DNA of 64,000 bases, taken from IMG/VR virus record IMGVR_UViG_2939127364_000001. One strand, 5' to 3'. The notes under the pieces were generated by a model that was given only the letters and a program-made list of their open reading frames with translations, made no database searches and was not told the origin of the DNA. Shown piece by piece: positions 37,644 to 38,442 of the stretch (positions within the stretch are counted from its first letter, which is position 1; every line of letters starts with the position of its first letter). The translations under genes and the position numbers were made by a program. The DNA is from a virus. Taxonomy: Duplodnaviria; Heunggongvirae; Uroviricota; Caudoviricetes.

Positions 37644-37913
37644 ATGTCAGCACTAAAAAAGCAGCGCATCGATTTGAGATTAACCGATGACGATAAAAGC
37701 ATCATCGAGGAAGCTGCCGCAATGTCTAACCAGAGCATTACTCAGTTTATGGTTAGCAGTGCATCTGAACGTGCCGTGAAAGTTATAGAGCAACACCGTA
37801 GACTAGTTCTGAATGAAGAATCCTGGAATCTGGTTATGGACGCTATAAGCAATCCTCCGGCACCGAACGACAAGCTGAAACGAGCTGCTGATCGTCTGAA
37901 AAGCATGGAGTAG
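37644..37913 (+). CDS. DUF1778/TacA-like antitoxin
   Basis: Start at ATG 37644 after AGGAGG RBS; RIDLRLTDDDKSIIEEAAAMSNQSITQFMV...NPPAPNDKLKRA matches recalled TacA-family pattern. Confidence 0.75.
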   Translation: MSALKKQRIDLRLTDDDKSIIEEAAAMSNQSITQFMVSSASERAVKVIEQHRRLVLNEESWNLVMDAISNPPAPNDKLKRAADRLKSME

Positions 37914-37920
37914 TTTACTC

Positions 37921-38442
37921 GTGAGCAATACAACGATAGAGATTTTCTCTGGAGAGAAAGATTATGATCTAAACGGTTTTGATTGCGGCGAAGAGTCACT
38001 AAACGCCTTTTTAGCCAACCACTTAAAAAGGCAGCATGAGGGAAAAATTCTTCGTGCTTATGTGCTTTGCACTCAAGAAGAAAGGCCAAAAGTGTTAGGA
38101 TATTACACTTTGTCAGGTAGTTGTTTTGAAAAGGAGTCCTTACCTTCAAGAAGCAAACAAAAGAAGGTTCCTTATCGGAATGTTCCAAGTGTTACTTTGG
38201 GTAGGCTGGCTTTGGACAAGTCCCTTCAAGGTCAAGGATTTGGCTCAATGCTTGTAACACATGCAATGCGCGTTGTGTACAATGCATCTCTTGCTGTAGG
38301 CATTCATGGACTTTTCGTTGAGGCGTTAAATGACAAAGCCAAGGCGTTTTATAAAAGTTTAGACTTTATCCAGCTGGTTGGTAACAACGAGCGTTCTTTG
38401 TTCTATCCTACAAAATCTATCGAAAAATTGTTCGAAGAATAA
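37921..38442 (+). CDS. GNAT acetyltransferase toxin (TacT/AtaT-like)
   Basis: 173 aa, GTG start 8 nt after antitoxin stop; GNAT motif LQGQGFGSMLV; antitoxin-toxin order typical. Confidence 0.7.
   Translation: MSNTTIEIFSGEKDYDLNGFDCGEESLNAFLANHLKRQHEGKILRAYVLCTQEERPKVLGYYTLSGSCFEKESLPSRSKQKKVPYRNVPSVTLGRLALDKSLQGQGFGSMLVTHAMRVVYNASLAVGIHGLFVEALNDKAKAFYKSLDFIQLVGNNERSLFYPTKSIEKLFEE

What the first reader, a model, noticed from the sequence alone, without database searches (positions are those of the whole stretch)
37644..38442. TacAT/AtaRT-type toxin-antitoxin module next to the partition locus
A DUF1778-type antitoxin (NPPAPN signature) is followed 8 nt later by a GNAT acetyltransferase. Members of this family acetylate aminoacyl-tRNA and arrest translation, giving the phage-plasmid an addiction or persistence function. 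It lies immediately upstream of the lysis cassette.
Basis: partly seen in the sequence, partly recalled or inferred. Interest (0 to 1): 0.5.

Follow-up and report, generated by a model that had tools for sequence, protein, structure and literature searches.

The report
KacAT/AtaRT-type toxin-antitoxin on a phage-plasmid
This is a real but ordinary and already annotated two-gene toxin-antitoxin cassette (a tRNA-acetylating GNAT toxin plus its DUF1778 antitoxin) carried as optional cargo by an SSU5-like E. coli phage-plasmid.

Summary
At 37644-37913 (+) lies an 89-aa DUF1778/TacA1 antitoxin (Pfam E=5.7e-26). Seven bases later, at 37921-38442 (+, GTG start), lies a 173-aa GNAT. By sequence the pair belongs with E. 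coli AtaRT and K. pneumoniae KacAT: toxin E~1e-78 and 1e-74 against their crystal structures, 69% identical to AtaT; antitoxin 76% to AtaR, about 80% to KacA. It is only distantly related to Salmonella TacT (1e-10).

The catalytic Tyr144, the acetyl-CoA motif with Gly108, most tRNA-contact residues and the antitoxin's DNA-contact residues R8/D10/R12 are all present. The operator GTACGG-N7-CCGTAC, with the same half-sites and spacing as the kacAT and ataRT operators, sits once in the window (37505-37523), just after a sigma-70-like promoter. It is invariant in five diverged phage-plasmid loci.

The window is an SSU5-like phage-plasmid, 99.9% identical here to phage Cyrano/pLF82. There the genes are already annotated as a KacT-type toxin and putative antitoxin, and are reported as expressed morons. 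The ~1.05-kb cassette fills a variable slot between the par locus and the 3' end of the convergent lysis cassette.

The addiction role is inferred and untested. Low novelty.

The parts
37433..37471 (+). Left end of the cargo cassette. Homology to TA-less SSU5-like plasmids stops at about 37432.
   Evidence: blastn of the window against L003, L004, L005, L006 and L008 ends at 37426-37432. Alignment A3 is conserved only over the first ~105 columns, the side next to parA.
37472..37500 (+). Predicted sigma-70 promoter: -35 TTGAAA (37472-77), 17-nt spacer, -10 TATATT (37495-500).
   Evidence: Consensus scan gives 10 of 12 matches. TTGAA and TATA.T are invariant columns in five diverged phage-plasmid loci while the flanks diverge. 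The transcription start site was not mapped.
37505..37523 (.). Operator palindrome GTACGG-TGATATG-CCGTAC, the predicted binding site of the RHH antitoxin (A4T2 complex). It overlaps the predicted transcription start.
   Evidence: There is a single match in 64 kb, against 0.04 expected with up to one mismatch. The half-sites and 7-nt spacing match the crystallised kacAT operator TGTACGGTTATTAACCGTACA (PMC6698736) and the sequence upstream of O157 ataR, TGTACGGTGACATACCGTACA. Both half-sites are invariant in A3.
37524..37643 (+). 120-nt 5' leader, containing the inverted repeat TGATGGCC-N12-GGCCATCA (37606-37633) and the Shine-Dalgarno AGGAGG (37633-37638).
   Evidence: Sequence and inverted repeat I6. 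The leader varies in length and sequence among loci. Its RNA fold is not better than shuffles, z=-0.48, and no Rfam family matches. In chromosomal ataRT the operator lies only ~24 nt from the ATG.
37644..37913 (+). Antitoxin gene, 89 aa: N-terminal ribbon-helix-helix DNA-binding part and C-terminal toxin-neutralising part (DUF1778/TacA1; KacA/AtaR orthologue).
   Evidence: Pfam PF08681, E=5.7e-26. KacA 5zgn_A 6.6e-42 and AtaR 6ajm_C 1.3e-40. 76% identical to AtaR. R8/D10/R12 and M65/I68 are conserved; position 70 is N and position 77 is K, as in AtaR.
37921..38442 (+). Toxin gene, 173 aa, GTG start: GNAT acetyltransferase, AtaT/KacT orthologue.
   Evidence: Pfam Acetyltransf_1 and Acetyltransf_7. 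AtaT 6gts_A 1.4e-78 and KacT 5zgn_C 4e-74, aligned end to end without gaps. 69% identical to AtaT. G108, Y144, Y85, R95, L27, F30, K79, K81 and K82 are conserved.
38446..38467 (.). G+C-rich hairpin GTTCCCCTCATTTGAGGGGAAC between the toxin stop codon and the end of the convergent Rz1 gene. Probable terminator insulating the two convergent operons.
   Evidence: The terminator scan flags it on the minus strand. A CCCCTC-N4-GAGGGG hairpin follows the toxin gene in all five TA-bearing loci, with a T-run on the plus strand in L005, L006 and L008 but not in the window.
38468..38477 (+). Right end of the cargo cassette. Homology to TA-less SSU5-like plasmids resumes at about 38478, where Rz1 ends.
   Evidence: blastn of the window against L003, L004 and L008 resumes at 38478-38484; alignment A4.

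Best explanation
This is a self-contained type II toxin-antitoxin cassette of the AtaRT/KacAT clade of the GNAT/DUF1778 family. It is carried as optional cargo by an SSU5-like E. coli phage-plasmid.

How it most likely works:
1. A sigma-70 promoter at 37472-37500 drives a bicistronic antitoxin-toxin mRNA.
2. The toxin is a dimeric GNAT. [quoted passage not shown] Translation stops.
3. The antitoxin's C-terminal half wraps the toxin, blocking acetyl-CoA binding and toxin dimerisation.
4. The antitoxin's N-terminal ribbon-helix-helix dimers, most tightly as a T-A2-A2-T hexamer, bind the GTACGG-N7-CCGTAC palindrome over the transcription start and repress the operon.
5. Biological role, inferred at about 50%: post-segregational killing, or competitive stabilisation, of the low-copy prophage-plasmid, acting together with the adjacent par locus.

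Shown here: gene structure, family membership by sequence, conservation of functional residues, presence and phylogenetic conservation of the operator, cassette borders, and the optional-cargo status.

Inferred from homologues: toxicity, tRNA targets, hexamer formation, conditional cooperativity and the addiction role.
For: ORFs and signals.

Family membership: Pfam TacA1 5.7e-26 and GNAT models above threshold. Full-length ungapped matches to AtaT (1.4e-78), KacT (4e-74), KacA (6.6e-42) and AtaR (1.3e-40) crystal-structure sequences. Identity is 69% to AtaT and 76% to AtaR.

Functional residues: residues whose mutation abolishes AtaT toxicity (G108, Y144, Y85, R95, L27, the alpha3 lysines; PMC7595197) are conserved. 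KacA DNA-contact residues R8/D10/R12 (PMC6698736) are conserved.

Operator: the 19-nt operator pattern is unique in the window against 0.04 expected. Its half-sites and spacing equal those of the kacAT operator in structure 5ZGN and of the ataRT upstream region. The -35, the -10 and both half-sites are invariant in five SSU5-like loci whose surrounding DNA is unalignable.

Targets of relatives: the clade A toxins AtaT and KacT acetylate Gly- and hydrophobic aa-tRNAs in vivo (PMC9177977).

Expression: in phage Cyrano/pLF82, 99.9% identical here, CYRAN_26 and CYRAN_27 are transcribed 35-fold and 60-fold above local prophage background in the lysogen (PMC9928086).

Setting: the cassette lies in the plasmid-maintenance region, divergent from parA. 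TA systems are part of the shell genome of SSU5 phage-plasmids (PMC7969092). The module is present in 151 complete E. coli genomes, and 261 carry this parA family. Related plasmids hold other cargo in the same slot.
Against: No experiment exists on this particular pair.

The toxin differs from AtaT at two tRNA-contact positions (R40E, N41G) and at A26S in the aminoacyl pocket, so the tRNA target set may differ.

The operator lies 120 nt upstream of the start codon, against ~24 nt in ataRT, and the leader is unexplained.

The plus-strand hairpin after the toxin gene lacks a T-run in this window.

For the addiction role: Cyrano has about 5.5 copies per cell, and per its annotation another TA (HicAB) as well as a par system. 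The contribution of this module to stability is therefore unknown. TA modules in general have disputed functions.
Confidence: 0.85

Rival explanations
1. Same molecular mechanism, different biological role. The module is a host-benefiting moron that promotes growth arrest and antibiotic or stress tolerance (persistence), for instance inside macrophages, rather than plasmid addiction.
For: It is expressed in the lysogen and listed as a moron in AIEC LF82, a strain noted for survival in macrophages (PMC9928086). KacT overproduction induces antibiotic tolerance (PMC9431474). TacT-type toxins are linked to Salmonella persisters in macrophages (PMC5959882 title and abstract).
Against: There are no data for this pair. 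The tolerance phenotypes of relatives come from overexpression. Placement in the variable plasmid-maintenance region beside par fits element-selfish stabilisation at least as well.
Confidence: 0.2
2. Same molecular mechanism, but the role is conflict between mobile elements. This could be abortive-infection defence against other phages, or exclusion of competing SSU5-like plasmids that lack the module.
For: The two variable slots flanking the par locus carry defence-like cargo in relatives and in this window: a PD-T4-3-like gene at 35481-36248 and PDC-S31/DUF2971 in Cyrano. Phage-plasmids carry defence genes in their accessory genome (PMC7969092).
Against: Neither protein matches any PADLOC defence model. 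No paper in the searched library ties GNAT/DUF1778 pairs to phage defence.
Confidence: 0.1
3. This is not a toxin-antitoxin pair but a harmless housekeeping-type GNAT acetyltransferase with a small transcription factor.
For: The generic GNAT Pfam scores are modest (E~1e-6), and the weak NCBIfam hits are to RimI-type enzymes.
Against: The toxin shows 69% full-length identity to AtaT, with every residue known to be needed for toxicity conserved. The antitoxin is 76-80% identical to AtaR and KacA. The operator is shared. PGAP names the homologues as a TacA-family antitoxin and AtaT.
Confidence: 0.02

Closest known systems
AtaR-AtaT of E. coli O157:H7 (chromosomal, between livJ and panM; PDB 6AJM, 6GTS and related)
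   Same: Same gene order and same protein lengths (89 vs 88 aa; 173 vs 175 aa), with a 6-7 nt gap. Toxin 69% and antitoxin 76% identical, aligned without gaps. G108, Y144 and most tRNA-contact residues are shared. The operator half-sites and spacing, GTACGG-N7-CCGTAC, are the same.
   Different: It sits on a phage-plasmid, not the chromosome. There is no DNA similarity outside the coding region. The operator is 120 nt rather than ~24 nt from the start codon. The toxin start is GTG. There are substitutions at R40E, N41G, A26S, R71K and K77R.
KacA-KacT of Klebsiella pneumoniae HS11286 (PDB 5ZGN, 5XUN)
   Same: Toxin E=4e-74. The antitoxin is about 80% identical (70 of 87 aligned residues, counted by hand from the alignment), with R8/D10/R12, M65 and I68. 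The operator core is identical to the 27-bp duplex in the crystal. A W-shaped T-A2-A2-T repressor and conditional cooperativity are expected by homology.
   Different: The antitoxin has N70 and K77 (as in AtaR) where KacA has Q70 and R77. The operator spacer sequence differs (TGATATG vs TTATTAA). The replicon and host differ.
TacA-TacT of Salmonella Typhimurium (PDB 5FVJ, 7AK8)
   Same: Same superfamily and architecture (DUF1778 + GNAT), and the same chemistry (acetylation of aminoacyl-tRNA).
   Different: It is only distantly related: toxin E=1.2e-10 and antitoxin E~1e-4. It belongs to a different clade with narrower, Gly-directed specificity in relatives (PMC9177977). 'TacAT-type' is right only at family level.
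CYRAN_27/CYRAN_26 of Escherichia phage Cyrano (= pLF82), and the PGAP-annotated pairs on more than 140 SSU5-like plasmids
   Same: Essentially the same sequence: 99.9% over 1.2 kb, and 100% in CP059946.1. Same position between parA and Rz1.
   Different: Cyrano's antitoxin is annotated from ATG 37608, 12 codons longer. That start is out of frame in the 89%-identical locus L007, and PGAP uses the 270-nt gene. The window differs from Cyrano in the neighbouring slot at 35380-36300.

Membership tests
GNAT/DUF1778 type II toxin-antitoxin family (TacAT/AtaRT/KacAT) | Two small co-oriented adjacent genes, antitoxin upstream of toxin | tested here: met
   37644-37913 and 37921-38442, same strand, 7-nt gap.
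GNAT/DUF1778 type II toxin-antitoxin family (TacAT/AtaRT/KacAT) | Antitoxin with a DUF1778/TacA1 domain (N-terminal RHH, C-terminal toxin-binding region) | tested here: met
   PF08681, E=5.7e-26, positions 1-79 of 80. R8/D10/R12 are present.
GNAT/DUF1778 type II toxin-antitoxin family (TacAT/AtaRT/KacAT) | Toxin with a GNAT fold, the acetyl-CoA motif Q/R-x-x-G-x-G/A and a catalytic Tyr | tested here: met
   Acetyltransf_1 and Acetyltransf_7 score above gathering threshold. Q103-G-Q-G106-F-G108 and Y144 are invariant in alignment A2. The fold was not modelled; it is inferred from 69% identity to solved structures.
GNAT/DUF1778 type II toxin-antitoxin family (TacAT/AtaRT/KacAT) | Toxin arrests growth and the cognate antitoxin neutralises it | not testable with these tools
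   Shown only for the homologues AtaT and KacT (PMC7595197, PMC9431474).
GNAT/DUF1778 type II toxin-antitoxin family (TacAT/AtaRT/KacAT) | Acetyl-CoA-dependent N-acetylation of aminoacyl-tRNA | not testable with these tools
   Shown for AtaT and KacT in vivo by LC-MS (PMC9177977).
AtaRT/KacAT clade (clade A of Bikmetov et al. 2022) | Closer in sequence to AtaT and KacT than to other GNAT toxins | tested here: met
   AtaT 266 bits and KacT 251 bits, against at most 78 bits for all other solved GNAT toxins, including TacT at 45 bits. No tree was built.
AtaRT/KacAT clade (clade A of Bikmetov et al. 2022) | Autoregulation through an RHH-bound palindrome GTACGG-N7-CCGTAC at the promoter | tested here: met
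   Met at sequence level only. There is a unique exact match at 37505-37523, next to the predicted -10. It equals the kacAT and ataRT operators and is invariant in five loci. Binding was not tested.
Plasmid addiction (post-segregational killing) module | Carried on a low-copy extrachromosomal replicon within the maintenance region | tested here: met
   SSU5-like phage-plasmid, divergent from parA. Cyrano has about 5.5 copies per cell (PMC9928086).
Plasmid addiction (post-segregational killing) module | Labile antitoxin and stable toxin, with killing or arrest of plasmid-free segregants | not testable with these tools
   No data.
Known anti-phage defence systems (PADLOC-DB 2.0) | Match to a defence-system protein model | tested here: not met
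   No hit for either protein at E<=0.01.

The most novel reading that the evidence does not exclude
The phage-plasmid module and the chromosomal ataRT may form one cross-talking network. ataRT-like DNA matches 1,626 chromosomal places among 5,426 complete E. coli genomes. The two share identical operator half-sites, and their antitoxins are 76% identical.

Chromosomal AtaR could therefore repress and neutralise the phage-plasmid toxin, acting as an anti-addiction module.

This would also explain why, among SSU5-like phage-plasmids, the toxin gene has been swapped or has diverged (56-61% nt identity) beneath a conserved promoter, operator and antitoxin (80-83% nt). That pattern would be the trace of an arms race to escape such neutralisation.
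Probability: 0.12. Interest if true: 0.5.

Novelty: already known. Interest (0 to 1): 0.15.

Why it matters
It matters little as a discovery. The genes are annotated by PGAP on more than 140 plasmids. In phage Cyrano they are annotated as a KacT-type toxin and putative antitoxin, and they were reported as expressed morons in 2023.

The module is still a sensible candidate for why SSU5-like phage-plasmids persist stably in clinical and animal E. coli. Such plasmids sometimes carry resistance or virulence cargo.

Three details added here are of modest practical use:
- the exact operator;
- the corrected antitoxin start;
- the cassette borders and the slot variability.

These make a clean deletion or reporter experiment easy to design. 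The conserved antitoxin paired with a diverged toxin gives a small, testable evolutionary question.

Tried and rejected
1. N-terminally extended antitoxin starting at ATG 37608 or TTG 37605, as annotated in Cyrano. Rejected. Homology to KacA and AtaR begins at M1 of the 37644 start. A strong SD precedes 37644. The extension is out of frame in L007 because of a 1-nt insertion. PGAP uses the short gene.

2. A structured RNA or riboswitch in the 120-nt leader. MFE z=-0.48 against shuffles, and there is no credible Rfam match. Nothing found.

3. Membership of a defence system. PADLOC gives no hit.

4. A second operator copy elsewhere in the window. None, even with one mismatch allowed.

5. DNA-level homology of the promoter region to chromosomal ataRT. 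blastn aligns only the coding part, 37642-38424. The shared operator was found by eye and by pattern search.

6. Co-occurrence of chromosomal ataRT with the phage-plasmid module. It cannot be extracted from the summary tables and was not pursued.

7. Structure prediction and the large protein-database searches. Not used, because 69-80% identity to crystal structures already settles family and fold.

8. A first script failed because several loci are stored in one FASTA file. This was resolved.

Full report
**1. Observation**

- The antitoxin ORF runs from ATG 37644 to TAG 37913 (89 aa). It is preceded by AGGAGG at 37633-37638.
- The toxin ORF runs from GTG 37921 to TAA 38442 (173 aa). It is preceded by GGAG at 37907-37910.
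- Seven bases separate the two genes.

Pfam assigns the first protein to TacA1/DUF1778 (PF08681) over the whole model, E=5.7e-26. It assigns the second to the GNAT families Acetyltransf_1 and Acetyltransf_7, E~1e-6, above gathering score. The 'NPPAPN' string is there (SNPPAPND, residues 69-76).

**2. Which family, precisely**

phmmer against all PDB chains gives full-length, ungapped matches:

| Window protein | PDB chain | E-value |
|---|---|---|
| Toxin | AtaT (6GTS, 6AJM) | 1.4e-78 |
| Toxin | KacT (5ZGN, 5XUN) | 4e-74 |
| Toxin | all other solved GNAT toxins | ≥1e-20 |
| Toxin | Salmonella TacT (5FVJ) | 1.2e-10 |
| Antitoxin | KacA | 6.6e-42 |
| Antitoxin | AtaR | 1.3e-40 |

Against the chromosomal O157:H7 genes fetched as L002, identity is 69% for the toxin and 76% for the antitoxin. 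Against KacA, 70 of 87 aligned residues are identical (counted from the alignment).

The pair is therefore an AtaRT/KacAT-clade member. 'TacAT-type' holds only at family level.

**3. Is it intact?**

The toxin lacks none of the residues shown to be critical.

- Yashiro et al. (PMC7595197) showed that G108D, Y144F, Y85A, R95A, L27E and the alpha3 lysine mutations remove or reduce AtaT toxicity. All of these residues are conserved here, as are F30, H34, R37, S76, S78 and K165.
- The differences are A26S, R40E, N41G, R71K and K77R.
- In KacA, R8, D10 and R12 contact operator bases. M65, I68, Q70 and R77 are needed for neutralisation (PMC6698736).
- The window protein has R8, D10, R12, M65 and I68. 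It has N70 and K77, exactly as AtaR does.

**4. Regulation**

The consensus scan finds TTGAAA-17-TATATT at 37472-37500 (10 of 12 matches). Four bases downstream lies GTACGG-TGATATG-CCGTAC (37505-37523).

The 27-bp duplex crystallised with KacA4KacT2 is AAATGTACGGTTATTAACCGTACATGA, and it 'spans the transcription start site'. The O157 ataRT upstream region reads TGTACGGTGACATACCGTACA. All three systems thus share the half-sites and the 7-nt spacing.

The pattern occurs once in the 64-kb window, against 0.04 expected with up to one mismatch.

I aligned the intergenic region with four other SSU5-like phage-plasmid loci from E. coli, Enterobacter, Citrobacter and Cronobacter (L005-L008). The -35 TTGAA, the -10 TATA.T and both half-sites are invariant columns, while the DNA around them cannot be aligned. 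That is a clear phylogenetic footprint of a promoter and operator.

By homology I expect repression by a T-A2-A2-T hexamer, with conditional cooperativity as shown for kacAT.

One difference from ataRT is the distance from operator to start codon: 120 nt here, ~24 nt in ataRT. This leader varies in length and sequence between loci. It has no better-than-random fold (z=-0.48) and matches no Rfam family. It contains the inverted repeat TGATGGCC-N12-GGCCATCA abutting the SD. I have no explanation for the leader.

**5. Start codon**

Cyrano's record starts the antitoxin 12 codons earlier, at ATG 37608. That start is out of frame in L007, which carries one extra base in the intervening stretch. Homology to KacA and AtaR begins at the 37644 methionine. 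PGAP annotates 270-nt genes.

**6. Genomic setting**

The 1.2 kb around the module is 99.9% identical to Escherichia phage Cyrano (the pLF82 phage-plasmid of AIEC LF82, SSU5-like) and 100% identical to plasmid CP059946.1. 142 PLSDB plasmids carry at least 80% of the query.

In Cyrano the genes are annotated 'KacT Acetyltransferase-type toxin' and 'putative antitoxin'. Misson et al. list them as morons transcribed 35-fold and 60-fold above the prophage background in the lysogen (PMC9928086).

- On the left is a type Ib-like ParA (36660-37325, minus strand; NCBIfam ParA_partition 3.4e-33) with a small partner gene (36301-36660). Both are divergent from the module.
- On the right, on the minus strand, are holin, endolysin, Rz and Rz1 (39905 down to 38475).

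The module is therefore tail-to-tail with the end of the lysis cassette, not upstream of it. A G+C-rich hairpin (38446-38467) sits between the two stop codons. An equivalent CCCCTC-N4-GAGGGG hairpin follows the toxin gene in all TA-bearing relatives. In three of them a T-run follows on the plus strand, but not in the window.

**7. Cargo status**

I compared the window with SSU5-like plasmids that lack the module: L003 from E. coli and L004 from an E. coli isolate but with a Klebsiella-type backbone. Homology stops at about 37432 and resumes at about 38478. The cassette is thus about 1,045 bp: promoter, operator, two genes and hairpin.

- In L003 the slot holds two genes with no Pfam or PADLOC match.
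- In L004 it holds a helix-hairpin-helix protein.

Among 5,426 complete E. coli genomes, 151 carry the module (at least 80% coverage) and 261 carry this parA family. That is roughly 58% of these elements. The figure is rough, since megablast may miss diverged parA alleles.

This fits the description of TA systems as part of the 'shell' genome of the SSU5 supercommunity (PMC7969092).

**8. A small oddity**

Nucleotide identity between the window and the Citrobacter, Enterobacter and Cronobacter loci, gene by gene:

| Gene | nt identity |
|---|---|
| parA | 86-88% |
| Antitoxin | 80-83% |
| Rz | 77-78% |
| Endolysin | 77-82% |
| Toxin | 56-61% (61-62% aa) |

The blastn match ends exactly at the antitoxin stop codon. 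The window's toxin is closer to chromosomal AtaT (69% aa) than to these phage-plasmid toxins. Its antitoxin shows the opposite pattern. This points to a recombination break at the A/T junction, or to accelerated toxin divergence under a conserved antitoxin and operator. I did not build trees.

**9. Mechanism and role**

The molecular mechanism rests on close homology. It comprises acetyl-CoA-dependent N-acetylation of aminoacyl-tRNA, neutralisation by the antitoxin's C-terminal half, and autorepression at the palindrome.

For the clade A toxins AtaT and KacT, the in vivo targets are Gly-tRNA and tRNAs charged with hydrophobic residues. Peptidyl-tRNA hydrolase counteracts the toxicity (PMC9177977).

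The biological role is not established for any phage-plasmid copy. I favour stabilisation of the low-copy prophage-plasmid (post-segregational killing or competition), at about 50%. The reasons are the position beside par and the selfish-cargo pattern. Persistence or stress tolerance (~20%) and conflict between elements or phage defence (~10%) remain open. PADLOC has no model matching either protein. No paper in the searched library has tested the pair.

**10. Verdict**

The finding is real and the interpretation essentially right. It is an ordinary, already annotated member of a well-studied TA family in an expected place. Interest is low. The residual interest lies in possible cross-talk with chromosomal ataRT (shared operator, 76% identical antitoxin) and in the toxin-swap pattern.

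Noticed in passing
window 35481-36248 (+); Cyrano equivalent L001 4099-4902 (-): A 255-aa GIY-YIG protein (Pfam LEM-3_GIY-YIG, 5.5e-7) matches the PADLOC anti-phage model PD-T4-3 almost end to end (1.3e-23). It fills a second variable slot (about 35380-36300) on the far side of the par locus. In Cyrano that slot instead holds a DUF2971 protein matching candidate defence model PDC-S31 (3.1e-41). L003, L004, L005 and L006 hold yet other genes. The par locus is thus flanked by two cargo hotspots.
   Followed up: partly
window 36301-36660 (-): This 119-aa gene overlaps the parA stop by one base (parA ends and this gene starts at 36660). Cyrano annotates it as 'RelE/ParE putative toxin'. 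It has no Pfam or toxin-family hit, only a weak RHH-type NCBIfam hit (aCcr1_fam, residues 54-79) and PHROG 5111 of unknown function. Its position and size fit the centromere-binding partner (ParG/ParB-like) of a small type Ib ParA, so the toxin label is probably wrong.
   Followed up: partly
window 37921-38442 compared with L005 3211-3714, L006 3125-3649, L008 3197-3715: Among SSU5-like phage-plasmids of other genera, the toxin gene is far more diverged (56-61% nt) than the antitoxin (80-83%) and the flanking backbone genes (77-88%). The similarity break falls exactly at the antitoxin stop codon. This suggests toxin replacement under a conserved antitoxin and operator.
   Followed up: partly
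window 37524-37643; L006 about 2700-2850: All phage-plasmid copies have a long (120-210 nt), highly variable leader between operator and start codon, unlike chromosomal ataRT (~24 nt). In L006 the leader consists largely of tandem AAAACTGAAA-like repeats. No structure or function was found.
   Followed up: partly
window 37326-37431: The ~105 bp next to the parA start codon are almost invariant across E. coli, Citrobacter, Enterobacter and Cronobacter plasmids, although everything beyond them differs. The stretch contains ATGTGATATAGCCT (37380-37393, repeated imperfectly at 37546-37559). It is probably the par promoter, operator or centromere.
   Followed up: no
L003 5176-6296 (-): In the TA-less E. 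coli plasmid NZ_JBVDMI010000003.1, the same slot holds two overlapping genes (250 and 127 aa) with no Pfam or PADLOC match. This is an uncharacterised two-gene cargo in a slot that elsewhere carries a TA.
   Followed up: partly
window 36660-37325 compared with 37326-38475: Mosaicism. The TA cassette is at least 99% identical in 131 E. coli records. The adjacent parA is at least 99% identical in only 8, and 90-95% in 165. The window therefore combines a common TA allele with a rarer par allele.
   Followed up: partly
window 39968-40813 (-) and 40823-45469 (-): A 281-aa glycine-rich ORF lies directly downstream of a 1,548-aa tail-fibre ORF. The tail-fibre ORF has a long Ala/Ser-rich low-complexity stretch and repeated 'NASTATKLQTAR' motifs. 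Seen only in the ORF list.
   Followed up: no
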